A stretch of 64,000 bases of DNA from Trypanosoma brucei (GCA_000002445.1 CH464491.1:4128001-4192000); one strand, 5' to 3'; shown: positions 3,601 through 22,578, counted from the first letter of the stretch. Notes: generated by a model from the sequence alone, not told the origin. A program made the numbers and translations.

Positions 3601-5763
3601 CTTGCCTTGTACTTCATCGGAGCCTTTTGTGCGGATGAAGTTCCGGATTTTATCGAGCACGTTGTCCACTTGCAGCAAATCACGTACAAATCTGTAGTTG
3701 GACCCCCCGACCCCAGCTTCCTGCGCCACGGACAGCAAGTGCTCATTCAGGTAATATGGGCTGATACATGTCCCAGCAACCCCCACGTGGGCTATCGTGT
3801 CCACAGTCATGAAACTGCTACCGGCGGAGGTCCCAAGGGGTCCGCACATACATAATAACTTCCAGAAGTTACTGCTCTTACGCACTGTTTTTGGATCCAT
3901 CCGAGCAAACTGAAGAAGGACGTGAAAAGCGATGGCACTAAGTCGTACATCAATCCAGAATGGAACCTTCTCCTGTGCTGCATCCCTAAGCACAAGCATG
4001 AATTCCGTCAACACCACATCGTCGGTAATCATCTCTACCGTTGCACATCTGCTCACGTCATCAATTTCCAACGCGAGCGTGGTGACTACCCCGTGAAGGA
4101 TCCGAAGGATCATTGTTGCTCCATGTACGCTGGGCTTTTCCACCACACAATGCAGCATACGTCGCATGGCCTCCTTGCGCTCAACCGCACCCTGCACGAC
4201 GTCACAAAAGAGGAGTGCATAAAACTGCTCAAGCTGATCCACCAAAGGTCCAGCTGTTCCCACGAGCGGCGACACCTCCCTCCCCTCGAAGCCCTTAGGG
4301 CCAAAGAAAGATGTAAGGTGGGAGGCACGGTCAACCTCCGCGCACAGTCTCGTGTCAAGGGAAACTTCCAATACGCTGGTGAATAAAAATTTTCTGGGGA
4401 ACAACTTTAGCAGTGGGGCGGATAGAGACCACAGGCGCATGAGCCCGATTTTGCGGAATGCCACATTTGGGTGAACCAACATTTTTAAAAAGAGTAGGGT
4501 CACCCACAGGGGGTGAATACCTCCCTTGAGCTGCAGGAGTAATATCTCATCCCCAGTTTCCCCAAAATCCGCCCACACGCTAGCGTCAGCTGTCACCTTT
4601 TCCACCAAAGAATCCAGTTTGGGAAGTATCGGTTGAATAATGTGCATTCCATAATCATTAGTTACCTCCAGAATAAGAAACAACATTTCCCACAGGTTGT
4701 TACTCACCGTTGGCACCCACACAAAGAGTGGATGGTATATTCTGCTGGCATCCCACTTCTCGCGCAACTCCTGGTCACGGGTCATTGCCACTATACGCTT
4801 GAGAAGATACTCAGCTCGCGACTGCATGTTCACGCGGTTCTCCACACTGCCACTGCCCGTACAGGCTCCATAAATTGCAGCGTGAATCGTGTCCCACAGA
4901 TTTGTTGAGCATCGGTAGTCCCGCTGCCTGTCACCATCCACGCATGAAAACAAGCATTCAAACAATGCTGCAATTAGCACAACAGTGTCTATCTGACTGC
5001 CCGCATTACACGTTAGCAGTGAACAAATACGGGAATGACCATCTTCCAAGAGAGCCTTGTCACCTAACGACAGCAGCGGAATCAGCACGCGGCGACAAAG
5101 GTACGAGCCCTGTGCGGATTCTTCACGCATATAAGGGATCGCATTAAGCGCGTAATCGATCACCATGCTTCTGATCGTGATACCACGCTCCTCTTCGCTA
5201 CGAATCTTTGCTTCATCGACCTCGTCATCGTTCATCCCCCTCGGGCCCCGCTTGCATCTCTCGTTCAGAGTGACCAGTGCAGTGGCAAACTGGGCCAATA
5301 GTTCGATAGCGCACTCCTTAGGTACCGTCAAATTGGTGTCAACCCCGCGAAGTGAATCCCCTGCCGCCACCAGTATTGCAATACTGCAACCCGAGAGGGT
5401 CACTTGTACAATGGAATAAAAAACGGCAGCAAGCACAGACTTTGGGTATGGTGGATGTGCCGTTAGGATGGACACCATCTCCACTTCCCACTTTGTAGTT
5501 TCTTCCGTACCACATCCACCGCCGCCAGAGGCGTCACAAAGGATCAGTGCACCACTGCAATATATATGCGCATCTGTACACATCTCCTTCTCGCTTTCGA
5601 GTAGTGCCAAAATCCGCAAAAACTGAAGCCGCCGCTCCCGGCCGCACATCGCCATCGCCAACTCCTTTGCTACGCCGAAGGCTTTGGAAGGATGAGGCTC
5701 ATTTTCTCCCTTACAAAAGCAACGAACCAACGCAACGACAACATCCTCCACCTTCGCTTCCAT
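613..5763 (-). CDS. Large HEAT/ARM-like repeat protein with a C-terminal SpoU/TrmH-type RNA 2'-O-ribose methyltransferase domain (TARBP1-like architecture), about 1,716 aa.
   Basis: The 1,767-aa ORF (613..5916) begins with a hydrophobic poly-Cys/Leu stretch that looks like read-through of untranslated sequence. The first plausible ATG is at 5761-5763 (MEAKVEDVV...). The C-terminal ~150 aa (encoded near 613-1100) carry the SPOUT motifs AVIVLGAEGHGIPAQLL ... IPQYGLIRSLNVHVTGSIVMYEY, which match the TrmH motifs LVLGNEGxGL and IPMxGxxxSLNVSVAAGIxLYE. The long N-terminal region is alpha-helical and repeat-like. Confidence 0.65.
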   Translation of the reverse strand: MEAKVEDVVVALVRCFCKGENEPHPSKAFGVAKELAMAMCGRERRLQFLRILALLESEKEMCTDAHIYCSGALILCDASGGGGCGTEETTKWEVEMVSILTAHPPYPKSVLAAVFYSIVQVTLSGCSIAILVAAGDSLRGVDTNLTVPKECAIELLAQFATALVTLNERCKRGPRGMNDDEVDEAKIRSEEERGITIRSMVIDYALNAIPYMREESAQGSYLCRRVLIPLLSLGDKALLEDGHSRICSLLTCNAGSQIDTVVLIAALFECLFSCVDGDRQRDYRCSTNLWDTIHAAIYGACTGSGSVENRVNMQSRAEYLLKRIVAMTRDQELREKWDASRIYHPLFVWVPTVSNNLWEMLFLILEVTNDYGMHIIQPILPKLDSLVEKVTADASVWADFGETGDEILLLQLKGGIHPLWVTLLFLKMLVHPNVAFRKIGLMRLWSLSAPLLKLFPRKFLFTSVLEVSLDTRLCAEVDRASHLTSFFGPKGFEGREVSPLVGTAGPLVDQLEQFYALLFCDVVQGAVERKEAMRRMLHCVVEKPSVHGATMILRILHGVVTTLALEIDDVSRCATVEMITDDVVLTEFMLVLRDAAQEKVPFWIDVRLSAIAFHVLLQFARMDPKTVRKSSNFWKLLCMCGPLGTSAGSSFMTVDTIAHVGVAGTCISPYYLNEHLLSVAQEAGVGGSNYRFVRDLLQVDNVLDKIRNFIRTKGSDEVQGKQLMFLLGALDSMGGEDRQVLADVARELAEMVLSFGRRPYSEAEDIFVALVAFVEFHHSVGSQPCTRYFPLSVILDVEDAVSGLAISSLRQAFHSIKEVTTLGDLSAEAWALQSTSRWDAVVAAVVTISQIAVSYDHSSASVVLRSGKRISDFVELLSVVAEGFPAIVPEDESRRVAQHFAHIVLARNASRALKGMLCGLVGTGDNISINDKRRDEDKTFLRCLSNNDRARCIRTLMRCPALRLSACDIPCSLTDLSWSNVLAQYYGCVYDVIFLLCSCMDQSAVPELVHELEEYGLDQVERCWESNLTSIYGILSWVASAPASPKGDSSVNIDRRSIINAMFGHLGVAGGRDHCRMTVLAFDALRCGVECEEELVKTHIYRTLLDEAQSERAGYIAAVTLSTEVLRDPESNWLRLKELLLHVAVLHNPSREEEGAEVLVAALEPLMLKAWPESLRVQYPPTVRLSYVGRAMAISAILCCCFKKEEWAADVTLQLLEWNNSNPAVNHEPCMPNSKAHRSRMRLWQLLCALVPMVRSPTVQRDLLHVVVMKCLTLTNMGSVRRLMELFALQLLQRQPQLYWIIDNAMANYQLRPQVIGSYVFISAHVILRELRGEVEPVDGLMDTLLHRLFQQSTSHQHMLRLVCHIGLNFIREASVARGIVFSANEESIFDYVANAPEHVKFRVQHAEQLFFDVREACTPRQLFCIQRREGNNILLVSIPAVAFERMRFIDREVACLTGVLTPVDQIRVQVLMQHFEASRVLEPLKEFPYIPHTKSTALFCVDYTPEAVAVLTADTHISEGMSSVTGYENVQRKATPWWSSQLYDELHPRALKTERQPVIVIASLLQNPVNVAGLFRCGEVFAVEKVVVSDAAVLEHPHFVAAARSSDLWLPWSAVQVKALSGYLSSLRQDGYTLVGIEQTAGSVPMSSYQFPKRAVIVLGAEGHGIPAQLLTVLDVCVEIPQYGLIRSLNVHVTGSIVMYEYTRQHRMGGAPESS

Positions 5764-6675
5764 TCGGAGATGGGAACCTAGTAACACACCACGGATACCC
5801 AAAAGTACGAAAGAAAAAAGAAGAGGATACAATAAATGAAACAGCAAAAACAAACAACAACAACACTTTTTCTTTAGATAGAAAACCAACAACAGGACCC
5901 GCAACAGTATCGTCAAAATCTTGTTTGCCTGCAGCCAAAAGGAGGGGAAAAAACGTTACTGCGAGTAAGAATTGAACTGACGAGACAGACAATAGAGAGA
6001 GCGACACAAAGTTCACGTTATAAGTAACAGCAGGGGTTACGAAAACATGAACAATATCACAAAAGAAATTAAACTAGAAAAAAGAAGCACATTCACGTAT
6101 TTTGGAAGAGCGTTCATTAACCGGTATCACCGACGGCAGTAGTAATAATTACACAACACGTATATATATATGAAGTACAAAGGGTATCAAGAGAAGCACA
6201 GCAACAGCTACATGAAAGCGGACACACACAGCATAACCACTTCACTCTCTTCGGTCAGCAAACCAACAAAAACCATAACATGGGTAAGTCTTGGATTAGA
6301 AACCGAATTAATCCGGATACGAAAAAGGGGGTCCAAAAAGATAGAAGAGTGTGGCGATGTAGAGAAAAAGACAAAGTGAGTTGTGTGACTCACATGACAA
6401 TAGGGAAAGCGGAAAACAGATCCGTATCCCCTCACCCAACTAATACAGCAGCTTCCCACTACTCAAATTAATGAAGGCGCTGACGCAATAAGGATGTGGA
6501 TCTGAATTATACCTCAGTGGGTGGATGCAGCAACAAGTTGCTATGATGTCATGGCAAGAAAGTGCCTAACTACGGGGAGGTACACAAACAAAGTAAACAC
6601 GGCAGCGCACATGGAGGCATTCCAAACAGTAATCCAAAACACAACATATATAGATCTTGTGGGAGGGGAATGTGC

Positions 6676-6699
6676 TATATATATATATATATATATATA
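6676..6699. repeat. (TA)12 microsatellite in the 3' spacer of AAT copy 1.
   Basis: Direct read: ctatatatatatatatatatatatatacg. The equivalent tract in copy 2 is (TA)14. Confidence 0.9.
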
Positions 6700-7779
6700 C
6701 GTAACCACTAATATCAAATCGAGAAGAATTAGGAAAGAGGGAAACGTGAGCAACAAATAAACCATCTGTCAGAAAACGTAACGCATCAGTGTACACAAAC
6801 ACACACAACTCTGGGGTAGTAATGTGCCACACTCCAGAAAACAAGAATCAAACTGAAGCATTTGATCATCAGTTTCACCACACACGAAGGTAAGGGGATA
6901 TATGAAACCAGATTCGCAGGGCTCCTCACAAGTACCACACTTCATCGCGCTGCCCAGTCAGACCACCAAACACCACGTGCGATGTGTGCAGACAAAAGGG
7001 AAGTTTGTGTTGGATGCAGGAAAAGGTATAGTGGCAAAGGGATTTAAAGGACAAAAAGAAGGGATAAAATAGAAAACACTATACAACACGTAATGCAACG
7101 TCTCAACCATAGGGATTAAACACCTAAAGGCTTACCCACCCACAACCCCAACCGCAGAAAATCCAATAATAATGGTGAGGAGGAGGGAAACAGCCTCTCT
7201 AAACAGCGTACCATAGAGACATTTGCGAAAAGGAAAGGGGTATTTTATTTTTGCACAAGGAAAAAAAAGAGCGAGGGAATTAACAAAAATTCAAAAAAAG
7301 GAAAAAAATAGATAGAAAATAACACAAAACCGTCAGTATCATAAGGGAAAATGTTAAAAAACAATCGTTCGCATACAAAGAACAGTAAAATAACAACAAG
7401 AAATGCTGAATTGCCCTTCCATACATTTATATATCTATGGAATTCTACGGCAAGCATCTTTAGACACTCATGAAAACTGTTATAGACATGGCTATGCAGC
7501 GTCCGCGGGGGAGAACGGCATCCAACAAACCATATAATGCAGTTTTCTTACTTCATCCACTAATATTACCAAGTTGCATCATTGATTCATAGGCCTCCCA
7601 TCATCAGTGGCATTATGTGAGACATGCATTTTCAACCCCATATCGCTGTCGCAAATGCCTAAATTCACACAAGAAAGGGGATGAACGAGAAAAATAAAAA
7701 AAACAAGAGGGAAAACAAAGAAGGAAAAGAAAAGAAAAGAGGGTATACTTCAATTAGGTCACGGGTTCTGACACATCCG

Positions 7780-9168
7780 CTACTTCTTAACCTCGTCGTA
7801 AATGGTTAATGCCGTACCAAACACAACAGCGAATACGCCGACAATGAGCAACTGGTATGTGACAGCGTAGTTGAACCACCCAACCTCTTTCAGAGAGAAG
7901 TTCCCCGCATACATGTAATACAGTGCTGGTAGAATAAAAGCAAGGAAGCCACCACAGAAACTTCCAAGAAAGTTGAAGACAACTTCAATACTGGGTAGCA
8001 CAAGTCCCAGTACGAGAGCGAGGGTAGCCAAGACACCACTCACTACGAGGTTCTTCCAGCTGTCAACATCAGACGTCTTCCCCCATCCCAATACATAATA
8101 AATCGCATCACGAGATGGCTGGATGCAAATAGCGAATCCTACGCATATCTTGATAGCGATGCCAACATACCCGATGGCCATCATCACATCATCTTGTGGT
8201 TTGTACAATTTGAGTACGGAGCCTTCTAGATCATTCCCGAAATCAAGATAACCGAAGATACCAGACAAGAAATACAGGAGACCAACCATCGACATCGCCA
8301 CACTACTGTCGCGCGTCATTCGCCGTGGGGTGGGTCCCTTCATCTCTTCATACACCTCAAAACAATTCACCTGACATATGAAGGCAAATACAAACAGTGT
8401 GAAGCCATTCAGAATCCCCCATCCATCACCGACGAGTCGAATGTCCGATCCTATCCCGTCTTTCAAGCCATTCATCGCAGCGTGTACAATCATGCATATC
8501 ACAAAGAAAACAATGAAGAAAACACCCACAGCAGAAGCATATCGAAGTGAGTTAATCTCCTTGGGAAGCGAGAGTGGTAACATGGCAACCAACCAAACTA
8601 CACCAACAATAACGTTCTTTCCCATCGATGTCCTCAGGAATCCAGTTGTTGAAGGCTGATTCAAAAGTGGAGAGAGTAAGTCACCCACTGATATCACGTA
8701 CCCAACGCAGGTTCCAAAGCAGAAAACAAACATCAAGAAAGCCGTAAAGTAGTCTGCACCGCGGCCAAGCAACCCACACGCCATCTCCTCATACGAACGG
8801 AATCCAGTTTTGTCCCTAGTGATCACGAGTATGCGGATAGAGTACACTGTGGTGAAGCAGATGTACACCAACATTAACGTGGCAATTATTATGCCAGAGT
8901 TGAGGAAACCAGAAGGCAGCATCACAATTCCAGCACCAAGGGTAGCACTCTCCAGGTTAAACACATTTGACGCCATTCCACCATATGGAACAATTCCCTT
9001 GATGGGGTCAAATACCGTGTTCAGGCAGCCCCTGTGCTCCCCGTCAGCAGCTGCTGTAGATTTATCGCTGTCTGGAGGTAATTCCAACACATTACCCTGA
9101 GACAAGCTTGGTATTAAGGTTGGGTGTTCGTCCTCGTTTATTATTGGCTCTGTTGCCCTGGGTGACAT
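7780..9168 (-). CDS. Amino acid transporter (AAT; transmembrane amino acid transporter / Aa_trans family), copy 1, 462 aa.
   Basis: ATG at 9166-9168. The 462-aa protein has about 11 hydrophobic helices and conserved AAT-family stretches (GGMASNVFNLESATLGAGIVMLPSGF..., FICQVNCFEVYEEMK, LPSIEVVFNFLGSFCGGFLAFILPALYYM). It is paralogous to the AAT genes at 33365 and 35955. Confidence 0.85.
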   Translation of the reverse strand: MSPRATEPIINEDEHPTLIPSLSQGNVLELPPDSDKSTAAADGEHRGCLNTVFDPIKGIVPYGGMASNVFNLESATLGAGIVMLPSGFLNSGIIIATLMLVYICFTTVYSIRILVITRDKTGFRSYEEMACGLLGRGADYFTAFLMFVFCFGTCVGYVISVGDLLSPLLNQPSTTGFLRTSMGKNVIVGVVWLVAMLPLSLPKEINSLRYASAVGVFFIVFFVICMIVHAAMNGLKDGIGSDIRLVGDGWGILNGFTLFVFAFICQVNCFEVYEEMKGPTPRRMTRDSSVAMSMVGLLYFLSGIFGYLDFGNDLEGSVLKLYKPQDDVMMAIGYVGIAIKICVGFAICIQPSRDAIYYVLGWGKTSDVDSWKNLVVSGVLATLALVLGLVLPSIEVVFNFLGSFCGGFLAFILPALYYMYAGNFSLKEVGWFNYAVTYQLLIVGVFAVVFGTALTIYDEVKK

Positions 9169-9250
9169 CTGCAGTTAACGTGAGTACTTAACTTTACAAT
9201 ATGCGCAGTAAGTGAGGAAAAGTAAGAAAATAAGAAAAAAAGAAAAGGAG
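9169..9250 (-). promoter_or_regulatory. Putative trans-splicing signal for AAT copy 1: a polypyrimidine tract on the coding (minus) strand followed by AG dinucleotides immediately upstream of the ATG.
   Basis: Plus strand 9211-9250 is purine-only (aaagtaagaaaataagaaaaaaagaaaaggag), which is a polyY tract on the minus strand. CTGCAG lies directly 5' of the ATG. This follows the kinetoplastid SL-addition convention. The actual splice site is not determinable from sequence alone. Confidence 0.35.
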
Positions 9251-9410
9251 TCAAACGCCCTGGCGTAACACAACAGTATATGACACAAACAATCAGGGAG
9301 GCGTAACCACAACATAAACACACAACACACAGATGCGAAAATGAGAGTAAGGACATAGAACTCAAACAGGAGCATTATCCACGCATCTTCACGCAACGCT
9401 TCCCACAACC

Positions 9411-11675
9411 TCAGTTATTGTCATCAAGTATATCCTTCGCAAGCCGCCACCCCCACGGGTTCTCTGCACACGGGTATGGTGGGGCGAGGAGGAGACCCTG
9501 CCGCTTCCGTTCCGCATCCTCCGCAACGTGACGAAGTGCCTGTTGTACCGCAGACACTCCCGTACCCCAAAATAGCAGTGGTTTGTTAGGTACACTCCAT
9601 GCTTGACCTAGAAGTTCCGGTTGAAACGTGCGTCGCCGGCGCTCGAACGGGTTAGCAGCTTTCCGCTCATCATCTTCCCGCAATTCACGCCATGCTTGCA
9701 CATCTGCCGCAGACACGTACGACATGTTTTCTGGTATTGGTAACAGCGGTGGTCGTTCCGCCTCTTCCATGTTTTGGAGCCACTCCATTTCCGTTTTCAC
9801 ATCGTTCTCAATTATACCCAGGATACGCATTGTCATCTTTTCCTTGCGTTGTTGGTGAAGGGCACGTAACTCCTCCGCAATACTTTGTTCGCCACCTTTG
9901 AGGCTCCTTATGATTCGATTAAGCATACGTGCTTTCGTTGCCGCCGCGCTCTGCACGTGGCGGTCCCGGATAACCCTAAGAGTTATTTCACGGATCTTTT
10001 CAAAGAGGGATGATGCCTCCGCATCGTCGTACACGTTAAACATTCCTGGTCCAACCTCACAATGATCTCCCTCGGTTTTGGCGGACTGGATGGCTGATCC
10101 CTCCCCCTCAGGAGGTGACGTCATGTTGCATTGGGCTGTTTTCTTTTCCATTATCTTTTCGTACAACTCCCGACATTGTGCTGCTTCCGGCATATTTTCC
10201 ACGCCGTCGAATAGCTTGGCATTTTCCCTGACGCACCTAATCTGCCGCTCCATCTGCATATGTGCAAGATACCGGAGGCGCTTTTCGTGCAACGATTCCA
10301 GACGTTTATCTTTGGGATCCATAAACATCTTCTCAACTAGGTTGACCACCTTTTGCGTTTTTATGCGGGCGACCTCGGCTTCGGCTTCGCAAGCAAATGC
10401 ATGACCTGTACCCGCAGTTTCTTTAATGTGCTTTACCGTCGATTCATCCCGTTGTTGGATTTGGAGTAGCTTTTGGTACTCTGGCGTGCTTTGCAGTGGG
10501 AGGAGCAATGCCCTTTCGTACCAGCGCTTGGCCCAATCCACGGGGTGTGCTCCCTCTTTAGATGAATAGTACTGGACAACGTCTAATGTGCTTAGCGTGG
10601 CGGCATCCATAGAGTATAGTTTGCGCAGACTTTCAATATACGCACTAAGATTCTCATCCTTTCCCGTGTGTTTGAAGCCACTGCCGAGTGTCAGCCGTGC
10701 AAAAACTTCGCAAAACTGTAGGAACTCCTCCTGGGCTTGCATCTCCGTCAGAACAGTTTCAGCGACGGCGATATCGAGGCCCACAGCGCGGTTAATAACG
10801 CGCTTAAGTCTCTCCATGCGCGACATCTTTCTGCTCCCACCCTTACGCCCCTTCACACCGCCCCTTTGCTGCGCCATCCTTCGAAGTCTTTCGATTTCTG
10901 CCAACTGATGATGCCGTTCCTCCAGTTTAACTTGCCGTAACCGCATCTCGGCATACTTGAACATATTGGCAAGGTGCTTCTGCGTTTCCAAATTGAGTTC
11001 CGCGGTGAGATTCGCCAGCATCCGTCTCTCAGCCTCCGTGCTGACACCTTCACGCTTTTTGTGAACGTAATCTGCAAACACTTGTTTCACGTGTGTCATC
11101 GCATTTTCCAGCCGGTGAACGTTTTCGGGATCGAAAAGGGAGGCATCAGCAGCATCGTATACGGCTTGCGACACACCGAGGGAGTACTGTGGATTCTTGA
11201 GGTGCACCGGCAAACCCAGTTTGACACGCTCGTACTCGTCTCGCACCGTTTTCCGTGGATCTAACTCAAAAACGTCAGCCATTGTGGTTTCGAAATACCT
11301 TCGGCGCTGCTGCTCTGTTGTTTCTGTGGGATGCTCCTGAAGCACTTTGTGCATGTACTTCGCAAAGGCATGCTTTTCGTCAACTGGCACACCTTCCCAT
11401 TCGGCGTCCGTCATGTGCTTTGCGCGCTCCGCCACCTCGCAACCAACACGACGCGTTGCCTCCTTTGAACGCTCCCCCTTGCTCCGTGGTGCTCTCGCTG
11501 AAGGTGAGCCGCCAAGCTCGGCATACAGCGCCTGTCGCTCGAAGTTTTCGCCCTGAGCCTTCTGAGCGGCCACCATTCGACGAACTTTCGCACGTTGACT
11601 ACGGGGATTTAGCAGCGAACTTCCAGGGGCTGGAACAAAGGCAGAGCGTCGGAAAAAAGGTATTGTGTGCCGCAT
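9411..11675 (-). CDS. Hypothetical charged, probably coiled-coil, protein of 754 aa.
   Basis: ATG at 11673-11675. Long ORF with coding-like GC3 and a K/E/R-rich helical composition. No family motif recognised. Its 3' terminal 210 bp fall inside duplication copy 1. Confidence 0.6.
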   Translation of the reverse strand: MRHTIPFFRRSAFVPAPGSSLLNPRSQRAKVRRMVAAQKAQGENFERQALYAELGGSPSARAPRSKGERSKEATRRVGCEVAERAKHMTDAEWEGVPVDEKHAFAKYMHKVLQEHPTETTEQQRRRYFETTMADVFELDPRKTVRDEYERVKLGLPVHLKNPQYSLGVSQAVYDAADASLFDPENVHRLENAMTHVKQVFADYVHKKREGVSTEAERRMLANLTAELNLETQKHLANMFKYAEMRLRQVKLEERHHQLAEIERLRRMAQQRGGVKGRKGGSRKMSRMERLKRVINRAVGLDIAVAETVLTEMQAQEEFLQFCEVFARLTLGSGFKHTGKDENLSAYIESLRKLYSMDAATLSTLDVVQYYSSKEGAHPVDWAKRWYERALLLPLQSTPEYQKLLQIQQRDESTVKHIKETAGTGHAFACEAEAEVARIKTQKVVNLVEKMFMDPKDKRLESLHEKRLRYLAHMQMERQIRCVRENAKLFDGVENMPEAAQCRELYEKIMEKKTAQCNMTSPPEGEGSAIQSAKTEGDHCEVGPGMFNVYDDAEASSLFEKIREITLRVIRDRHVQSAAATKARMLNRIIRSLKGGEQSIAEELRALHQQRKEKMTMRILGIIENDVKTEMEWLQNMEEAERPPLLPIPENMSYVSAADVQAWRELREDDERKAANPFERRRRTFQPELLGQAWSVPNKPLLFWGTGVSAVQQALRHVAEDAERKRQGLLLAPPYPCAENPWGWRLAKDILDDNN

Positions 11676-13230
11676 ATTAGTAGAATTCTAAAAAAAAAAA
11701 CGTACGCCTTTCGAATCGTTAAATATTGGGCTCCTCCACGTAGGGGTGAGCCTGAGAAAACAAGCAGATGGGTCCGATAAATACTCTTACAATAGAGCTG
11801 TTACAAAGGTTTTATGTATTTTTCTCCCTTGAATGATCTTCTTCCCACCATTAAGTGATAAAAGAAAAGAAAGCAGGGGAGATGAGAGTCATAGTGAAGT
11901 TAAAGAAGTGCCATAAACCCCTATTAAAGGACGTCACTAAAAGGAACTGAATAGCAGGTACATCCTGATGCAAACAGGAAACACATCGCACTTGTTTACG
12001 ATGTGGAAGCACAAAATAATGGGGGTGAAAATGTACGGGAAACCACATCTATACACAAAGAATTTGTTCCAGGCACCTGTACGAAATATTTTCATAAACC
12101 CTGCGGCATTCCCAAAATGAAAGTAGTGCCTTAAGCCGAAAGCGGCATCCAAGGCGGCAAACCAAAACTGAAAAGGGGAAAAACAGCGCCTCAACGAAGC
12201 AACCATCTATCCCCATGGGAACAAGCCAACAAACTTTATCCAGGTGGTTCGGGGAGTTCTGTAGCTTCGCTACAAAACACAACGTCTGCCGGTGGCACCA
12301 GGCGCCCCACAATAACTTCCAGTGCCTTTTCAAGCGCAAGCAGGCCCTCGCCCTGCCCAGAAGTTGAACACCAACCTGCCACGTCCGGTAAAATGTAAGG
12401 TATAGGAGCATCATCCGAATGTTCAAAATCATTAAAGGAGGCATCACCGAGACATACAAATAGCGGGTTATCATCCTTCCTAACAACTTTATCGTCCCCC
12501 TGCAAGGGACAATTTACAGAGCCGTTGATATGCAGTGGCGTGGAGCAAAACATATCAACAGCAAATCGCCGCTAAAACTAAAACAAAATAGAACAAAAGC
12601 GCAAGAAGACGATAGGACACATATGCCAATACGTAAAATCAGTCACTCAATAAAAGAAACAGCCTAAAATATTAACCGGTATCACCGACGGCAGTAGTAA
12701 TAATTACACAACACGTATATATATATGAAGTACAAAGGGTATCAAGAGAAGCACAGCAACAGCTACATGAAAGCGGACACACACAGCATAACCACTTCAC
12801 TCTCTTCGGTCAGCAAACCAACAAAAACCATAACATGGGTAAGTCTTGGATTAGAAACCGAATTAATCCGGATACGAAAAAGGGGGTCCAAAAAGATAGA
12901 AGAGTGTGGCGATGTAGAGAAAAAGACAAAGTGAGTTGTGTGACTCACATGACAATAGGGAAAGCGGAAAACAGATCCGTATCCCCTCACCCAACTAATA
13001 CAGCAGCTTCCCACTACTCAAATTAATGAAGGCGCTGACGCAATAAGGATGTGGATCTGAATTATACCTCAGTGGGTGGATGCAGCAACAAGTTGCTATG
13101 ATGTCATGGCAAGAAAGTGCCTAACTACGGGGAGGTACACAAACAAAGTAAACACGGCAGCGCACATGGAGGCATTCCAAACAGTAATCCAAAACACAAC
13201 ATATATAGATCTTGTGGGAGGGGAATGTGC

Positions 13231-13258
13231 TATATATATATATATATATATATATATA
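13231..13258. repeat. (TA)14 microsatellite, the copy-2 counterpart of 6676-6699.
   Basis: Direct read: gctatatatatatatatatatatatatatatacg. Confidence 0.9.
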
Positions 13259-14376
13259 CGTAACCACTAATATCAAATCGAGAAGAATTAGGAAAGAGGG
13301 AAACGTGAGCAACAAATAAACCATCTGTCAGAAAACGTAACGCATCAGTGTACACAAACACACACAACTCTGGGGTAGTAATGTGCCACACTCCAGAAAA
13401 CAAGAATCAAACTGAAGCATTTGATCATCAGTTTCACCACACACGAAGGTAAGGGGATATATGAAACCAGATTCGCAGGGCTCCTCACAAGTACCACACT
13501 TCATCGCGCTGCCCAGTCAGACCACCAAACACCACGTGCGATGTGTGCAGACAAAAGGGAAGTTTGTGTTGGATGCAGGAAAAGGTATAGTGGCAAAGGG
13601 ATTTAAAGGACAAAAAGAAGGGATAAAATAGAAAACACTATACAACACGTAATGCAACGTCTCAACCATAGGGATTAAACACCTAAAGGCTTACCCACCC
13701 ACAACCCCAACCGCAGAAAATCCAATAATAATGGTGAGGAGGAGGGAAACAGCCTCTCTAAACAGCGTACCATAGAGACATTTGCGAAAAGGAAATATTA
13801 TTAAGCAAAAAAGCGTAAAAAGGGAGGCGAGGCAAGGAATCACAAAATACTAACTTAATTACTACAGGCAGATAAATAAGGGTAAAAAAAAACAACTATT
13901 GCCGCTACTCAGTATCATAGTCAACAAAAGTTTTTTCGTTGTGCCTCTATAACGCGATAACTAATATTTTTAAAAAACCATAAATTAATTCGTAGAGATT
14001 TCCTCAAACTCTTACATTGCGATAAAGAGATTATCCTTTTTTTTTTTACAGATATTCATCATTGACGTTAAAAAAGTTGTAGATATGGCTATGCAGCGTC
14101 CGCGGGGGAGAGCGGCATCCAACAAACCATATAATGCAGTTTTCTTACTTCATCCACTAATATTACCAAGTTGCATCATTGATTCATAGGCCTCCCATCA
14201 TCAGTGGCATTATGTGAGACATGCATTTTCAACCCCATATCGCTGTCGCAAATGCCTAAATTCACACAAGAAAGGGGATGAACGAGAAGAATAAAAAAAA
14301 CAAGAGGGAAAACAAAGAAGGAAAAGAAAAGAAAAGAGGGTATACTTCAATTAGGTCACGGGTTCTGACACATCCG

Positions 14377-15765
14377 CTACTTCTTAACCTCGTCGTAAAT
14401 GGTTAATGCCGTACCAAACACAACAGCGAATACGCCGACAATGAGCAACTGGTATGTGACAGCGTAGTTGAACCACCCAACCTCTTTCAGAGAGAAGTTC
14501 CCCGCATACATGTAATACAGTGCTGGTAGAATAAAAGCAAGGAAGCCACCACAGAAACTTCCAAGAAAGTTGAAGACAACTTCAATACTGGGTAGCACAA
14601 GTCCCAGTACGAGAGCGAGGGTAGCCAAGACACCACTCACTACGAGGTTCTTCCAGCTGTCAACATCAGACGTCTTCCCCCATCCCAATACATAATAAAT
14701 CGCATCACGAGATGGCTGGATGCAAATAGCGAACCCCCCACAAATCTTGATAGCGATGCCAACATACCCGATGGCCATCATCACATCATCTTGTGGTTTG
14801 TACAATTTGAGTACGGAGCCTTCTAGATCATTCCCGAAATCAAGATAACCGAAGATACCAGACAAGAAATACAGGAGACCAACCATCGACATCGCCACAC
14901 TACTGTCGCGCGTCATTCGCCGTGGGGTGGGTCCCTTCATCTCTTCATACACCTCAAAACAATTCACCTGACATATGAAGGCAAATACAAACAGTGTGAA
15001 GCCATTCAGAATCCCCCATCCATCACCGACGAGTCGAATGTCCGATCCTATCCCGTCTTTCAAGCCATTCATCGCAGCGTGTACAATCATGCATATCACA
15101 AAGAAAACAATGAAGAAAACACCCACAGCAGAAGCATATCGAAGTGAGTTAATCTCCTTGGGAAGCGAGAGTGGTAACATGGCAACCAACCAAACTACAC
15201 CAACAATAACGTTCTTTCCCATCGATGTCCTCAGGAATCCAGTTGTTGAAGGCTGATTCAAAAGTGGAGAGAGTAAGTCACCCACTGATATCACGTACCC
15301 AACGCAGGTTCCAAAGCAGAAAACAAACATCAAGAAAGCCGTAAAGTAGTCTGCACCGCGGCCAAGCAACCCACACGCCATCTCCTCATACGAACGGAAT
15401 CCAGTTTTGTCCCTAGTGATCACGAGTATGCGGATAGAGTACACTGTGGTGAAGCAGATGTACACCAACATTAACGTGGCAATTATTATGCCAGAGTTGA
15501 GGAAACCAGAAGGCAGCATCACAATTCCAGCACCAAGGGTAGCACTCTCCAGGTTAAACACATTTGACGCCATTCCACCAGACGGAACAACTCCCTTGAT
15601 GGGGTCAAATACCGTGTTCAGGCAGCCCCTGTGCTCCCCGTCAGCAGCTGCTGTAGATTTATCGCTGTCTGGAGGTAATTCCAACACATTACCCTGAGAC
15701 AAGCTTGGTATTAAGGTTGGGTGTTCGTCCTCGTTTATTATTGGCTCTGTTGCCCTGGGTGACAT
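14377..15765 (-). CDS. Amino acid transporter (AAT family), copy 2, 462 aa.
   Basis: ATG at 15763-15765. It differs from copy 1 at only three residues in the translation: KGIVPYGG vs KGVVPSGG (two substitutions) and KICVGFAICIQ vs KICGGFAICIQ (one). Confidence 0.85.
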   Translation of the reverse strand: MSPRATEPIINEDEHPTLIPSLSQGNVLELPPDSDKSTAAADGEHRGCLNTVFDPIKGVVPSGGMASNVFNLESATLGAGIVMLPSGFLNSGIIIATLMLVYICFTTVYSIRILVITRDKTGFRSYEEMACGLLGRGADYFTAFLMFVFCFGTCVGYVISVGDLLSPLLNQPSTTGFLRTSMGKNVIVGVVWLVAMLPLSLPKEINSLRYASAVGVFFIVFFVICMIVHAAMNGLKDGIGSDIRLVGDGWGILNGFTLFVFAFICQVNCFEVYEEMKGPTPRRMTRDSSVAMSMVGLLYFLSGIFGYLDFGNDLEGSVLKLYKPQDDVMMAIGYVGIAIKICGGFAICIQPSRDAIYYVLGWGKTSDVDSWKNLVVSGVLATLALVLGLVLPSIEVVFNFLGSFCGGFLAFILPALYYMYAGNFSLKEVGWFNYAVTYQLLIVGVFAVVFGTALTIYDEVKK

Positions 15766-15847
15766 CTGCAGTTAACGTGAGTACTTAACTTTACAATATG
15801 CGCAGTAAGTGAGGAAAAGTAAGAAAATAAGAAAAAAAGAAAAGGAG
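15766..15847 (-). promoter_or_regulatory. Putative trans-splicing signal for AAT copy 2, identical to the copy-1 element.
   Basis: Identical sequence to 9169-9250 within the duplicated unit. Confidence 0.35.
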
Positions 15848-16007
15848 TCAAACGCCCTGGCGTAACACAACAGTATATGACACAAACAATCAGGGAGGCG
15901 TAACCACAACATAAACACACAACACACAGATGCGAAAATGAGAGTAAGGACATAGAACTCAAACAGGAGCATTATCCACGCATCTTCACGCAACGCTTCC
16001 CACAACC

Positions 16008-16217
16008 TCAGTTATTGTCATCAAGTATATCCTTCGCAAGCCGCCACCCCCACGGGTTCTCTGCACACGGGTATGGTGGGGCGAGGAGGAGACCCTGCCG
16101 CTTCCGTTCCGCATCCTCCGCAACGTGACGAAGTGCCTGTTGTACCGCAGACACTCCCGTACCCCAAAATAGCAGTGGTTTGTTAGGTACACTCCATGCT
16201 TGACCTAGAAGTTCCGG
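16008..16217 (-). pseudogene. Truncated 3' fragment (last ~70 codons) of the 754-aa gene, left at the duplication junction.
   Basis: The 71-aa ORF 16008..16223 (..PELLGQAWSVPNKPLLFWGTGVSAVQQALRHVAEDAERKRQGLLLAPPYPCAENPWGWRLAKDILDDNN) is identical to the C-terminus of the 9411..11675 product. The upstream 2 kb of the gene is absent. Confidence 0.75.
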
Positions 16218-17054
16218 TTGCAAATTGTAGATAAAGTTTTCGTGGGTAGGGTTGCGCTAACGACTGTTATCCGTATGTTGTTTCAATGAGTATTGTTATC
16301 GCCTTGCAAATGTTCTTTTTCAAGATTTGGAGGAGAAGGAAGCTCTTCGCCTTTTTTCATCGAATCATTCTTTATAACACGAACGTTACGTTGATCCATT
16401 GCGTTTCTGTTCTTTAAATGTTTGAAATCTGAAACTTTTGTCGCATATCAATTGGAACCTATTCTTCTCGTTTGTGTGTGTGTATTTATTAAAAGCTGTC
16501 TCACTTACCTGCTTTTTCGCGTCGTGTTACCTTCCCCCACACTTTAATCACTTTTTCAAACAGCTGACTTTGATTGTTACACTTTTTCCGCAGCGTAACG
16601 CAAGGAAATGCGATAAATCTTTCCCATAACAAAATGTATTTGTTGCACAAAACGACATTTCAGTGAGATGCTACCCCGATCACATTTGTAATGCAGGTAC
16701 ATCGTGTTTTAGTTTCACTCAACCAGGGTTCCACTTGGCAATGGTCACCCGAAACCATTCTGTATATTACATAATCCGCACCGCATGAATACGAAGAGAG
16801 CATTTGTACGTGCCCAAGGGATGTTTAGTGATTTTACTATCCGTGAAAGGGGTAAAAAGGGATTGATTGAGTCCTCTTTGTTCCCTCCACCCCTTTCGGC
16901 AAATGTCAGACTTTTCCTTTCCTTTGCTCCCCCCCCCCAAGGCACACACGTGATTCGTTCAACACATTTATTGGCTAATACACATGCACCGTGCGAGGAT
17001 AGGCGTACGGGTCTAGGGTGAAGAGCACACAAATACACCCAACCATCGGATCCT

Positions 17055-18209
17055 TTACGAAGGGCTCATAAATAACTTTACTACGATAAACATAATGATC
17101 AGTAACTGCATAAAAAAGAAGGACCAAAGTTTGTCAAGGCTGGCCTCCAAGGCTACGATGCGATCACGCTGCTCCAACCATCGTTGTCGTAGTGACTGTA
17201 TGTGTACATCCCGTGCTGCGTGGTGAAGTGCCTTATCCTGGGTTAACGACGGCCTTGCAGTTTTTGTATCAGCAGACGAACCCATGTTGAGGGCGTCGGC
17301 CAAAGAACTGGGATGTGGAGCGCTGTTCATCGTTTGATCGTTCACTCGGGCTGACAATAACGAAGTCATACGCCCGATATTTTGGAGTCCGGCCAAGTGC
17401 CACAAAAGTGAAACTGCGACAACCAAAGCAAGAACAAGCAGCAGACCCTGGAAAAGTGTACTGCTTTGGCCCACTTCCTCACTAGCGGATGGTTCGCTGA
17501 CAGAAGTTTCCTTTGCTGAGTAGGTACCCTCAGATACATCTGACGTCTGCACACATAGAACATCACCGGTCAGATCCTTCGAAATCATTTCCAGCATCTG
17601 CTGATATGCCCGCGTCATCTCCTTTATTGCCCGCGGATTAGCCATATATTGGATGGCAGCAAAGCCCATACTCATTTTCTTGCAACCACCGTACACGGCC
17701 AATGTGATATCTGCATCCTCAGAGGGTGCGGTAATTTCAAGAAGTGCCTCTGTCCGGAAGGTCGTTCCCATTGGTACATTTGGTGTCTGAGAGGATACGT
17801 GATACACGAGTGTTATACCACCACTTGTTGATGACGTGTAGGCAAAACGGTGCGCCTGATTAAGGGTAGTGTCGACGGGCCCTCTGGGTAAGTCCACGGT
17901 GCATTGGAAAGTTAGCGTTCGAAACCCGCTGGCCATGTCCGGCGCGTACTCCCACTTACTCAGCTCCAAGTTCGTCTCTTTTCGACTCCCGTGGTAACGC
18001 TGCAAGAACTCAGCTTTGTCGGAGAAAATAGCATCCCACAACTTGGCTACTGTAACTCCCTTCATCAGTGCCGGTGGGATCATACACTTCTTTTCCTTTA
18101 CCTTGTCGTGTGGTGAAAACATGTTTCTCGATATGCCCATGGTGTACTGCTGCTTATCGAACAAAGCCTGGGCGCTTGCCCCAGAAGCATATCGAATCTC
18201 CCCAGACAT
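17055..18209 (-). CDS. VASt (Aster/GRAMD1-like) domain protein with a C-terminal transmembrane anchor; putative lipid-transfer protein, ~384 aa.
   Basis: The ORF track start at 18218 is a GTG. The first ATG is at 18207-18209 (MSGEIRYASG...). The region KLWDAIFSDKAEFLQRYHGSRKETNLELSKWEY...FRTLTFQCTVDLP...GGITLVYHVSSQTPNVPMGTTFRTEALLEI resembles the VASt fold pattern. One hydrophobic helix lies near the C-terminus (LLLVLALVVAVSLLW). Confidence 0.5.
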   Translation of the reverse strand: MSGEIRYASGASAQALFDKQQYTMGISRNMFSPHDKVKEKKCMIPPALMKGVTVAKLWDAIFSDKAEFLQRYHGSRKETNLELSKWEYAPDMASGFRTLTFQCTVDLPRGPVDTTLNQAHRFAYTSSTSGGITLVYHVSSQTPNVPMGTTFRTEALLEITAPSEDADITLAVYGGCKKMSMGFAAIQYMANPRAIKEMTRAYQQMLEMISKDLTGDVLCVQTSDVSEGTYSAKETSVSEPSASEEVGQSSTLFQGLLLVLALVVAVSLLWHLAGLQNIGRMTSLLSARVNDQTMNSAPHPSSLADALNMGSSADTKTARPSLTQDKALHHAARDVHIQSLRQRWLEQRDRIVALEASLDKLWSFFFMQLLIIMFIVVKLFMSPS

Positions 18210-22293: not shown

Positions 22294-22578
22294 GGGGTCC
22301 GTAACTGAAAGAACGGGAGGATACAAACAAAAAAACAGGGTGAAGGGTACCCAAAACCCACACCACACACCAATACCCCCTCGCCCTTCTTCGACCTGAT
22401 ACAGACGCGGCAAGAAGGGAGAGCAAAGAAAAAAGAAAAAGACAAAGGAGGAGTTCAAACATGTTGGTATACTAACGAACCACAAAGCAGACCTGAGGTT
22501 GCAGAAAAATACACCCCAACACCGGGATACAGGAGGCATCACCAACGAAAATCCGCTTTACTGGGAAATAGAACAAGA

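What the first reader, a model, noticed from the sequence alone, without database searches (positions are those of the whole stretch)
6118..16217. Very recent 3.5-kb tandem duplication of an amino-acid transporter gene, with a truncated fragment of the neighbouring gene marking the junction
Segments 6118-9620 and 12673-16217 are almost base-for-base identical; the two AAT CDSs differ at three codons. They are separated by ~3 kb of unique sequence that holds the intact 754-aa gene. Copy 2 ends in a 210-bp fragment, the last 70 codons of that 754-aa gene, so one breakpoint lies inside that gene's 3' end. This is a clean example of AAT copy-number expansion by segmental duplication, which is the mechanism kinetoplastids use to tune transporter dosage because they lack promoter-level control. 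The near-identity points to very recent duplication or ongoing gene conversion.
Basis: seen in the sequence. Interest (0 to 1): 0.6.

Follow-up and report, generated by a model that had tools for sequence, protein, structure and literature searches.

The report
Old homogenised lysine transporter gene duplication
This is the already described two-copy lysine transporter locus (AAT16) of Trypanosoma brucei; the copies look freshly duplicated, but the duplication is old and gene conversion keeps the copies nearly identical, so it is a tidy but ordinary example.

Summary
The repeat is real. Window 6116-9626 and 12671-16224 (all genes on the minus strand) are 99.3-99.6% identical wherever they align. 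The window is T. brucei TREU927 chromosome 11. The genes are the known lysine transporters TbAAT16 (Tb927.11.15840/15860, 3 aa apart), flanking mt-SAF5 (Tb927.11.15850). Copy 2 does begin with the last 70-71 codons of mt-SAF5.

"Very recent" is not supported. The same junctions, block and paralog-specific patches occur in T. b. gambiense and T. b. equiperdum, and the patches also occur in Lister 427. T. congolense also has AAT-mtSAF5-AAT, while T. vivax, T. melophagium, T. theileri and T. cruzi have one AAT, downstream of mt-SAF5. Fourteen strain-specific substitutions are shared by both copies within a strain, so gene conversion (concerted evolution) explains the near-identity.

The layout is A-B-A, not tandem. 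Three islands escape homogenisation: the 3' block and two micro-patches. One patch (I59V/Y62S) coincides with a published difference in histidine complementation in yeast.

The duplicated 3' segment also carries a conserved 66-nt hairpin with an AGA box, a candidate H/ACA-like snoRNA.

Low interest; already known.

The parts
6116..9626 (-). Repeat copy 1, the ancestral position. It comprises the last 213-216 nt of mt-SAF5, a 242-nt intergenic stretch, AAT16.1 and 1.66 kb of downstream sequence.
   Evidence: Self-BLAST and global alignment. The single AAT of T. vivax, T. melophagium, T. theileri and T. cruzi lies in this position, downstream of mt-SAF5.
12671..16224 (-). Repeat copy 2, the derived position, inserted between the VASt-domain gene and the small 105-aa ORF.
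   Evidence: The junctions are sharp, with no microhomology beyond 0-1 nt. The same boundaries are seen in DAL972 and T. b. equiperdum.
7780..9168 (-). AAT16.1 CDS (Tb927.11.15840, EAN80529), 462 aa, lysine transporter of the AAAP family.
   Evidence: Pfam Aa_trans 1.5e-58. Exact protein match. Gene naming from PMC5207785.
14377..15765 (-). AAT16.2 CDS (Tb927.11.15860, EAN80531), 462 aa.
   Evidence: Identical to P0001/EAN80531. 459/462 identical to copy 1.
9411..11675 (-). Intact 754-aa gene, mt-SAF5 / 'kinetoplast poly(A) polymerase complex 1 subunit' (Tb927.11.15850). Its last 213-216 nt belong to repeat copy 1.
   Evidence: Exact match to EAN80530. PDB 6SGA/9HNY chain F5. Orthologues across kinetoplastids, including Bodo saltans.
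16008..16224 (-). Pseudogene fragment: a copy of the last 70-71 codons plus stop of mt-SAF5 at the 5' end of repeat copy 2.
   Evidence: Translation is identical apart from the first residue, and there is no ATG.
7237..7472 (-). Copy-1-specific block (236 bp), pyrimidine-rich in the mRNA sense, 308-543 nt after the AAT16.1 stop.
   Evidence: Not alignable to the copy-2 block (z = 0.45). 97.5% conserved in DAL972 copy 1. Sequence.
13796..14069 (-). Copy-2-specific block (274 bp).
   Evidence: 87% conserved in copy 2 of DAL972 and T. b. equiperdum, differing by indels.
8984..8994 (-). Patch A (equivalent to 15581-15591 in copy 2): 3 nt differences giving I59V and Y62S. Copy 1 carries the ancestral state.
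   Evidence: Fixed by paralog in all three assemblies and in Lister 427. The outgroups have (G)IVPY. Copy-2-type variants complement histidine uptake in yeast.
8137..8146 (-). Patch B (equivalent to 14734-14743 in copy 2): 5 nt differences giving V343G.
   Evidence: Partly converted in T. b. equiperdum copy 1. Swapped variants were PCR-cloned from Lister 427.
9627..12670 (-). Unique spacer of 3044 bp, holding most of mt-SAF5 and a conserved small ORF (12236-12553, 105 aa).
   Evidence: The small ORF is called in L001 and L006, with positional counterparts in T. vivax, T. melophagium, T. theileri, T. cruzi and T. congolense.
6243..6309 (-). Candidate H/ACA-like snoRNA (hairpin plus AGA box), the copy in repeat 1.
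12798..12864 (-). The same candidate H/ACA-like snoRNA, the copy in repeat 2.

Best explanation
The region is the TbAAT16 locus of T. brucei TREU927 chromosome 11. A 3.5-kb segment was copied about 3 kb upstream, into the intergenic region between the VASt-domain gene and a small ORF. The segment comprises the 3' end of mt-SAF5, the lysine transporter AAT16 and 1.66 kb of downstream sequence that includes a conserved hairpin-AGA element. The result is an A-B-A layout: AAT16.2, then small ORF plus mt-SAF5, then AAT16.1.

The copying most likely happened once, before T. brucei and T. congolense separated and after T. vivax branched off. It certainly happened before the T. brucei subspecies diverged.

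The copies are nearly identical because non-crossover gene conversion keeps homogenising them (concerted evolution). The latest homogenisation post-dates the split of the sampled T. brucei strains.

Three islands have escaped conversion: a 236/274-bp block in the 3' flank, patch A (I59V/Y62S) and, incompletely, patch B (V343G).

Both genes sit in one polycistronic unit, so the pair doubles the dosage of an essential transporter. Patch A and the distinct 3' block leave room for some functional or regulatory difference between the copies.

Status of each step:
- Shown: the structure, its distribution among taxa, and the conversion signature.
- Inferred: a single origin, the dosage role, the role of the islands, and that an important gene between the repeats disfavours loss of one copy by crossover.
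For: Structure.

Identity of the locus.

Shared junctions, block and patches in DAL972 (L005) and T. b. equiperdum (L001). The patches are also in Lister 427 (S3 Table of PMC5207785).

Gene conversion:
- 14 sites carry a strain-specific base in both paralogs (patterns 011011 x8, 001001 x3, 010010 x3).
- 7 sites are fixed by paralog in all three strains and 5 more in two of them. These 12 lie in the two patches, at the edge of the divergent block (7478-7487) and at the repeat boundary (9624).
- Outside the patches and block edges, TREU927 paralogs differ at 3 isolated sites in about 3.25 kb (about 0.09%). Between strains the unique spacer differs by 0.46-0.56%.
- Lister 427 shows the same pattern (positions 60, 411, 531, 747).

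T. congolense:
- Contig L007 begins inside an AAT C-terminus (aa 363-461), runs through the small ORF and mt-SAF5, then reaches a second AAT. Its positions 1-499 match 6342-6844 at 98-99%.
- The two T. congolense 3' flanks are otherwise unalignable, as expected for an old duplication.
- Third codon positions between T. brucei and T. congolense differ at 58%.
- Spacings match between the species. AAT stop to hairpin element is 1465 nt in T. congolense copy 2 and 1471/1513 nt in T. brucei. Element to small-ORF ATG is about 195 nt versus 244 nt.

Single AAT downstream of mt-SAF5 in T. vivax, T. melophagium, T. cruzi and T. theileri.

Functional difference linked to patch A.
Against: - The T. congolense contig is only 7.6 kb and starts inside the upstream AAT. 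Whether it carries the mt-SAF5 fragment and the same junctions could not be checked, so independent duplications in the two species are not excluded.
- Non-coding T. brucei and T. congolense sequence is too diverged to test whether the copy-specific blocks are orthologous.
- The divergent block could be a later insertion or replacement in one copy rather than a relic.
- Dosage, differential 3' processing and selection on patch A are inferred. No expression data were available. The yeast histidine result comes from heterologous expression.
- The Lister 427 patch-B swap variants could be PCR chimeras.
Confidence: 0.65

Rival explanations
1. Very recent segmental duplication: the copies are near-identical simply because too little time has passed for them to diverge.
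For: Alignable parts are 99.3-99.6% identical, including a non-functional gene fragment and non-coding sequence.
Against: - The same junctions, the same paralog-specific patches and the same non-homologous block are present in DAL972 and T. b. equiperdum, and the patches also in Lister 427.
- 14 strain-specific substitutions occur in both copies. A single old or young duplication cannot produce that without conversion.
- T. congolense has the same layout.
- A fresh copy would not contain a 236/274-bp unalignable block.
Confidence: 0.04
2. Two independent duplications. T. brucei and T. congolense each copied AAT16 upstream of mt-SAF5 after they separated. In T. brucei the event is older than the subspecies radiation, and gene conversion has homogenised the copies since.
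For: - The upstream junction in T. congolense is unseen because the contig ends.
- The T. theileri clade independently carries pieces of a different neighbour (gene X plus the hairpin element) in the same VASt / small-ORF intergenic region. That site therefore seems prone to receiving copies.
- In T. brucei the high identity extends 1.66 kb past the stop codon. In T. congolense it extends only about 200 nt.
Against: Gene order is the same and the spacings match (stop to element, element to small ORF) in both species. One event is more parsimonious than two for sister lineages.
Confidence: 0.22
3. Much older duplication, already present in the common ancestor of the trypanosomes sampled, of a larger segment (AAT16 + hairpin element + gene X), followed by differential loss. 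T. brucei and T. congolense kept AAT2 and the element. The T. theileri clade kept the element and fragments of X. T. vivax and T. cruzi lost everything.
For: T. theileri has a second copy of the hairpin element and X fragments exactly where T. brucei has copy 2. T. melophagium has a 1170-bp X fragment there at 99.7% identity.
Against: It needs at least two complete and two partial losses, against two gains. No AAT remnant was detected in the upstream region of T. theileri, T. melophagium or T. vivax.
Confidence: 0.08
4. Assembly artefact: a mis-joined or falsely duplicated repeat.
For: Short-read assemblies do fail here. The T. equiperdum OVI contig ends inside the repeat, and its single AAT mixes copy-1 and copy-2 markers.
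Against: - Three independent assemblies agree on the structure.
- Each copy has its own unique flanks, block and patches.
- Distinct ORF variants were PCR-cloned from Lister 427.
Confidence: 0.01

Closest known systems
TbAAT16 locus (Tb927.11.15840 / Tb927.11.15860; AAT16.1 / AAT16.2), the high-affinity lysine transporter of T. brucei (Mathieu et al. 2017, PMC5207785; locus numbering from Jackson 2007, PMC1810246)
   Same: It is this locus. The proteins match the TREU927 records exactly. The published 3-aa difference and the nucleotide table match the window.
   Different: Nothing differs in the object itself. What the papers read here do not state: the repeat boundaries, the mt-SAF5 fragment, the non-homologous 3' block, the A-B-A origin, and the explicit case for concerted evolution at this two-copy locus. 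Jackson tested only loci with more than two duplicates.
Concerted evolution of T. brucei AAT arrays AAT2, AAT5 and AAT7 (Jackson 2007)
   Same: Conspecific copies cluster together to the exclusion of positional orthologues in T. congolense. Short conversion tracts swap motifs between copies.
   Different: Those loci are head-to-tail arrays of 3-11 copies. Here two copies are separated by two unrelated genes. Homogenisation covers non-coding sequence and a pseudogene fragment.
AAT17.1 / AAT17.2 tandem pair in the same window (33365-34852 and 35955-37439)
   Same: Duplicated AAAP transporter genes in the same transcription direction.
   Different: A true tandem pair that is only 91.8% identical, so it is not being homogenised to the same degree.
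Alpha/beta-tubulin-type alternating arrays and the RPL27e / 1038-aa gene / RPL27e triplet next door (18667-19259 = 22578-23170)
   Same: Near-identical gene copies with an unrelated gene between them, all in one polycistron.
   Different: The RPL27e layout is also present in T. vivax, so it is older. Its repeats are only 593 bp.
Solitary H/ACA-like snoRNAs of trypanosomes, such as TB1Cs2H1 between the tubulin genes (Michaeli et al. 2012, PMC3273796; Psiscan, PMC2613932)
   Same: The 66-nt element in the duplicated 3' segment has the family's single hairpin, AGA box, pocket geometry and compensatory changes. It lies between protein-coding genes.
   Different: No Rfam family matches it. Expression, CBF5 dependence and an rRNA target were not testable here.

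Membership tests
AAAP amino-acid transporter (Pfam Aa_trans) / TbAAT16 lysine transporter | Aa_trans domain over the whole protein | tested here: met
   PF01490 E = 1.5e-58 and 2.7e-59, profile positions 4/5-409 of 410.
AAAP amino-acid transporter (Pfam Aa_trans) / TbAAT16 lysine transporter | Sequence identity with Tb927.11.15840 / 15860 | tested here: met
   Copy 1 equals EAN80529 and copy 2 equals EAN80531. The nucleotide differences match S3 Table of PMC5207785.
AAAP amino-acid transporter (Pfam Aa_trans) / TbAAT16 lysine transporter | High-affinity, selective lysine transport | not testable with these tools
   Taken from PMC5207785 (Km 4.3 uM in yeast).
Tandem (head-to-tail) duplication | Copies directly adjacent, with a single novel junction | tested here: not met
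   3044 bp of unique sequence holding two genes lies between the copies. There are two junctions, at 12670|12671 and 16224|16225.
Very recent duplication | Confined to one strain or lineage and absent from close relatives | tested here: not met
   Present with the same boundaries in DAL972 and T. b. equiperdum. Two genes with the same patches are found in Lister 427. T. congolense has the same layout.
Very recent duplication | Uniform near-identity across the whole copied segment | tested here: not met
   The 236/274-bp block is unalignable. The remaining differences are clustered in patches.
Concerted evolution by gene conversion | Paralogs within a genome share derived states that differ between genomes (cladistic criterion of Jackson 2007) | tested here: met
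   14 such sites among three T. brucei assemblies. T. brucei copies are 99.8% and T. congolense copies 99.0% identical, against about 64% between the species over the same 499 nt.
Concerted evolution by gene conversion | Mosaic or partial tracts visible | tested here: met
   T. b. equiperdum copy 1 carries 2 of the 5 patch-B sites in the copy-2 state. Sites 9116, 7625 and 6223 show mixed patterns. Swapped patch-B clones were obtained from Lister 427.
Concerted evolution by gene conversion | The duplication predates the split of the compared species (needed to rule out parallel duplication) | tested here: inconclusive
   Same gene order and matching spacings in T. congolense, but the upstream junction lies beyond the contig end.
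Trypanosomatid H/ACA-like snoRNA (features from Psiscan, PMC2613932) | [quoted passage not shown] | tested here: met
   66-67 nt. A, then TTCGGT/ACCGAA (6 bp), then G, then AGA.
Trypanosomatid H/ACA-like snoRNA (features from Psiscan, PMC2613932) | Target position 13-16 nt upstream of the AGA box; perfect stem II next to the pocket; apical loop of at least 5 nt | tested here: met
   3' pocket strand (7) + stem I (6) + spacer (1) = 14 nt. Stem II CCAA/TTGG and a 9-nt loop.
Trypanosomatid H/ACA-like snoRNA (features from Psiscan, PMC2613932) | Compensatory changes between orthologues, with unconserved flanks | tested here: met
   5 of 15 pairs have changes on both sides. 92% of cells are paired, against 24-53% when the partners are slid. 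1 of 500 shuffles reached the observed count. Conservation stops at both ends of the element.
Trypanosomatid H/ACA-like snoRNA (features from Psiscan, PMC2613932) | Complementarity of the pocket to an rRNA or snRNA uridine; expression; CBF5 dependence | not testable with these tools
   No trypanosome rRNA or small-RNA data were available. There was no Rfam match.

The most novel reading that the evidence does not exclude
The A-B-A layout may be a stabilised state rather than an accident. With a conserved mitochondrial ribosome assembly factor (mt-SAF5) sitting between the two repeats, a crossover that would collapse the duplication also truncates that gene. Only non-crossover conversion would then be tolerated. 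The pair could persist and evolve in concert since before the T. brucei / T. congolense split, while selection holds a 3-nt patch (I59V/Y62S, linked to histidine uptake in yeast) and a distinct 3' block against homogenisation.

In addition, the VASt / small-ORF intergenic region may be a recurrent landing site for copies of the region downstream of mt-SAF5 in separate trypanosome lineages. The duplicated flank may also double the dose of an unannotated H/ACA-like snoRNA.
Probability: 0.2. Interest if true: 0.45.

Novelty: already known. Interest (0 to 1): 0.22.

Why it matters
In practice it matters for anyone working on TbAAT16.
- The two genes cannot be told apart by their ORFs or by most of the flanks. 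They can be told apart by the 236/274-bp block and the two patches, which gives copy-specific probes, qPCR amplicons and guide sites.
- The near-identity should not be read as recent origin. Copy-number or 'recent duplication' scans in trypanosomes will misdate loci that evolve in concert.
- Short-read assemblies collapse this locus, as T. equiperdum OVI shows.

Biologically it adds one well-resolved case to the known pattern of concerted evolution in trypanosome transporter families. Here a patch that resists conversion coincides with a published difference in substrate range. It also flags a conserved hairpin-AGA element that is worth checking against small-RNA data.

Tried and rejected
- Donor search for the two micro-patches. 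Neither variant occurs elsewhere in the 64-kb window, including the AAT17 pair, at up to 3 mismatches. Other AAT loci on chromosomes 4, 8 and 10 could not be searched as DNA.
- Orthology of the copy-specific blocks with the T. congolense flanks. Local alignment scores are no better than dinucleotide shuffles (best z = 1.9), so this is inconclusive.
- Rfam scan of 5900-17100 at E <= 1 found nothing.
- Full-text search for the hairpin element's sequence found no paper. The supplements of Michaeli 2012 are not held.
- T. congolense chromosome-level record (TCIL3000_11_15770, P0002): not in the contig collection. The only T. congolense DNA obtained was the 7.6-kb contig L007.
- Exact look-up of the copy-2 protein and of the TREU927 mt-SAF5 protein returned no contig, although both are TREU927 proteins. 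The TREU927 chromosome itself was therefore not re-fetched.
- T. equiperdum OVI (L006) was discarded as evidence for structure, because the contig ends in the repeat and its AAT is a marker chimera.
- A second short T. brucei / T. congolense match (window about 7046-7078, L007 7388-7421; 34 nt, 85%) was not seen in other species and was not pursued.
- Tandem duplication of the 6.56-kb unit followed by deletion of the upstream small ORF and most of mt-SAF5 was considered as the origin. It predicts the same final sequence as a one-step insertional copy, so the two cannot be told apart here.


Full report
OBSERVATION

A self-comparison of the window shows a long direct repeat. Positions 6116-7236 match 12671-13795 (1125 nt, 99.64%, no mismatch, one 4-bp indel in a (TA)n run). 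Positions 7473-9626 match 14070-16224 (2155 nt, 99.30%). The start-to-start spacing is 6555-6597 bp.

Between the two matching stretches lies a block of 236 bp in copy 1 (7237-7472) and 274 bp in copy 2 (13796-14069). These blocks do not align: the local alignment score is 23, against 21.7 +/- 2.9 for dinucleotide shuffles.

All long ORFs in the region are on the minus strand. The two 462-aa ORFs (7780-9168 and 14377-15765) are Aa_trans proteins. They differ at I59V, Y62S and V343G.

The 754-aa ORF (9411-11675) lies between them, and its last 213-216 nt form the upstream end of repeat copy 1. Copy 2 starts with the same 213-216 nt (16008-16224). That stretch translates to the same 70-71 residues plus stop but has no ATG. 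Both junctions are sharp, with no microhomology to speak of.

WHAT IT IS

Copy 1 is identical to EAN80529 and copy 2 to EAN80531. The 754-aa protein is identical to EAN80530. All three are T. brucei brucei TREU927 records, so the window is T. brucei chromosome 11.

The genes are Tb927.11.15840 and Tb927.11.15860, the TbAAT16 locus. Mathieu et al. (PMC5207785) describe two genes that differ by 3 amino acids and encode a high-affinity lysine transporter (Km 4.3 uM). The transporter is essential in bloodstream forms. Their S3 Table lists exactly the nucleotide differences seen here. [quoted passage not shown]

The gene in the middle is mt-SAF5, also named 'kinetoplast poly(A) polymerase complex 1 subunit' (PDB 6SGA / 9HNY chain F5). 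It is conserved as far out as Bodo saltans.

The object is therefore already known and annotated.

AGE AND ANCESTRAL STATE

T. b. gambiense DAL972 (L005) and T. b. equiperdum IVM-t1 (L001) have the same two copies. Their repeat boundaries fall at the same coordinates, and they carry the same copy-specific blocks (97.5% and 80% identical for copy 1, 87% for copy 2, the differences being mostly indels).

T. vivax (L003), T. melophagium (L004), T. cruzi (L008) and T. theileri (L009) have a single AAT16, always immediately downstream of mt-SAF5. In T. vivax, T. melophagium and T. theileri the order is VASt gene, small ORF, mt-SAF5, AAT16, TARBP1-like methyltransferase. No VASt match was found in the T. 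cruzi locus. Copy 1 therefore sits in the ancestral position. Copy 2 is the derived one, which agrees with the mt-SAF5 fragment it carries.

T. congolense contig L007 (7.6 kb) begins inside the C-terminus of an AAT (aa 363-461). It continues through 1.7 kb of flank, a small-ORF homologue and mt-SAF5, and then reaches a complete AAT. Its first 499 nt match the end of that second AAT and about 200 nt of 3' flank at 98-99%. Beyond that the two flanks are unrelated. T. congolense thus has the same A-B-A layout.

Over the same 499 nt, the T. brucei copies are 99.8% identical, the T. congolense copies 99.0%, and the between-species comparisons about 64%. Third codon positions between the two species differ at 58%.

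The spacings agree as well. The conserved hairpin element lies 1465 nt after the stop of the upstream AAT in T. congolense, and 1471/1513 nt after the stop in T. brucei. It lies about 195 nt and 244 nt, respectively, before the small-ORF ATG.

I take this as a single duplication in the T. brucei / T. congolense ancestor. Because the T. congolense contig ends before the upstream junction, parallel duplication remains possible.

WHY THE COPIES ARE NEARLY IDENTICAL

I aligned both copies from TREU927, DAL972 and T. b. equiperdum and excluded the divergent block.
- 14 sites carry a base that differs between strains but is the same in both copies of a strain: 9109, 8758, 8638, 8422, 7939, 7780, 7754 and 7654; 9301, 7834 and 6327; 9380, 6422 and 6288.
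- 7 sites are fixed by paralog across all three strains and 5 more in two of them. These 12 lie in the two patches, at the block edge (7478-7487) and at the repeat boundary (9624).

With shared junctions, the first class can only arise by transfer between copies after the strains separated. Lister 427 shows the same thing: positions 60, 411, 531 and 747 differ from TREU927 in both genes.

Outside the patches and block edges, the TREU927 copies differ at three isolated sites in about 3.25 kb. The unique spacer differs by 0.46-0.56% between TREU927 and the other two strains.

Partial tracts are also visible.
- T. b. equiperdum copy 1 has two of the five patch-B sites in the copy-2 state.
- Mathieu et al. 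cloned patch-B-swapped ORFs from Lister 427. PCR chimeras cannot be excluded for those clones.

This is concerted evolution by gene conversion. Jackson demonstrated it for the AAT2, AAT5 and AAT7 arrays but did not test it at two-copy loci.

ISLANDS THAT ESCAPE

All eight CDS differences fall in two windows of 10-11 nt. That clustering appeared in none of 10^6 random placements.

Patch A:
- Copy 1 reads ATT GTT CCA TAT and copy 2 reads GTT GTT CCG TCT.
- Copy 1 is ancestral: T. vivax and T. melophagium have GIVPY and T. congolense has LIPY.
- The patch is fixed by paralog in every T. brucei genome examined.
- In yeast, only the copy-2-type proteins complemented histidine uptake, whatever the residue at position 343.
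- Selection on patch A is therefore plausible, but this is an inference.

Patch B (V343G) is less stable, as described above. Its polarity is ambiguous: V in T. vivax and T. melophagium, G in T. congolense. No donor for either patch exists elsewhere in the window.

The 236/274-bp block lies 308-543 nt after the stop codons and is pyrimidine-rich in the mRNA sense. It may hold the poly(A) and trans-splicing signals. This is an inference, as no transcript data were available. The block is either a relic of the original divergence or a later replacement in one copy, and cannot tell which.

MECHANISM OF ORIGIN

A single unequal crossover gives a head-to-tail repeat, not A-B-A. The structure therefore needs one of two routes:
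- a one-step insertional copy of the 3.5-kb segment about 3 kb upstream, by template switching or break repair; or
- a tandem duplication of the 6.56-kb unit, followed by deletion of the upstream small ORF and most of mt-SAF5.

Both routes leave the same two junctions, and I cannot separate them.

One consequence, which is an inference: a crossover between the two repeats would remove the small ORF and all but the last 71 codons of mt-SAF5. If that gene is needed, the duplication is protected from collapse and only non-crossover conversion is seen.

OTHER THINGS IN THE DUPLICATED SEGMENT

The only part of the 1.66-kb 3' flank that is conserved across species is a 66-nt element (6243-6309 and 12798-12864, minus strand). 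It is found after AAT16 in T. vivax, T. melophagium, T. cruzi and T. theileri. It is found after the upstream AAT in T. congolense. T. theileri has a second copy.

Its features are:
- an invariant A;
- a 6-bp stem, TTCGGT/ACCGAA, with a compensatory TTCGAC/GTCGAA in T. cruzi;
- invariant unpaired strands, TTCTAAT and TTTGCTG;
- a covarying upper stem;
- then G and AGA.

Conservation stops at both ends of the element. For the structure as drawn, 92% of cells pair, against 24-53% when the partners are slid, and 5 pairs have double changes.

These are the published features of trypanosomatid H/ACA-like snoRNAs (PMC2613932). Solitary snoRNAs lying between protein-coding genes are known in T. brucei (PMC3273796). 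Rfam has no match. Expression and target could not be tested, so it remains a candidate.

VERDICT

The locus and its two genes are already in the literature. What this analysis adds is the exact anatomy, the evidence that near-identity reflects gene conversion of an old A-B-A duplication, the markers that distinguish the copies, and a candidate snoRNA in the flank. Interest is low.

Noticed in passing
window 6243-6309 and 12798-12864 (minus strand); L007 1760-1827; L003 13982-14046; L004 13777-13839; L008 13569-13634; L009 13796-13858 and 4444-4506: A conserved 66-nt hairpin followed by an AGA box, with invariant pocket strands and compensatory stem changes. It fits the trypanosomatid H/ACA-like snoRNA pattern. 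No Rfam family matches it, and its sequence was not found in the searchable papers. It is duplicated together with AAT16 in T. brucei.
   Followed up: partly
window 18667-19259 and 22578-23170: Two RPL27e copies, 99.8% identical over 593 bp, flank a 1038-aa gene. This is the same A-B-A layout directly upstream of the AAT16 one. T. vivax has the same RPL27e / gene / RPL27e order.
   Followed up: partly
window 33449-35238 and 36036-37825: A true tandem pair of Aa_trans genes (495 and 494 aa, presumably AAT17.1/17.2) that is only 91.8% identical. It contrasts with the homogenised AAT16 pair 20 kb away.
   Followed up: partly
L004 14142-15311 vs 4407-5575; L009 13736-14331 vs 4384-4970 and 14180-14636 vs 3768-4209: In T. 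melophagium and T. theileri a 470-aa gene lies between AAT16 and the TARBP1-like gene; it has no match in the T. brucei window. Pseudogene pieces of it have been copied into the VASt / small-ORF intergenic region, at 99.7% identity in T. melophagium. That is the same target site as AAT16 copy 2 in T. brucei, which suggests either a recurrent landing site or a very old shared duplication.
   Followed up: partly
L006 (T. equiperdum OVI, CZPT02001381.1): The contig ends inside the repeat. Its single AAT16 mixes copy-1 markers (patch A) with copy-2 markers (patch B, and the 3' block at 100% identity to TREU927 copy 2). This looks like a short-read collapse of the two copies.
   Followed up: yes
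window 12236-12553 (minus strand): A small 105-aa ORF with no Pfam hit lies in the unique spacer. It has positional counterparts in T. congolense, T. vivax, T. melophagium, T. theileri and T. cruzi that share an (I/V)PY(I/V) motif and a C-terminal (A/E)PP motif. It is probably a real small gene.
   Followed up: partly
window 6676-6699 and 13231-13258; also near 6161: (TA)n microsatellites inside the repeat vary in length between the two copies and between strains. At 6161, DAL972 and T. b. equiperdum carry long TA runs that TREU927 lacks.
   Followed up: no
window 7046-7078 and 13605-13637; L007 7388-7421: A second short match between T. brucei and T. congolense (34 nt, 85%), at a collinear position about 700-770 nt after the AAT stop. 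It was not detected in other species.
   Followed up: no
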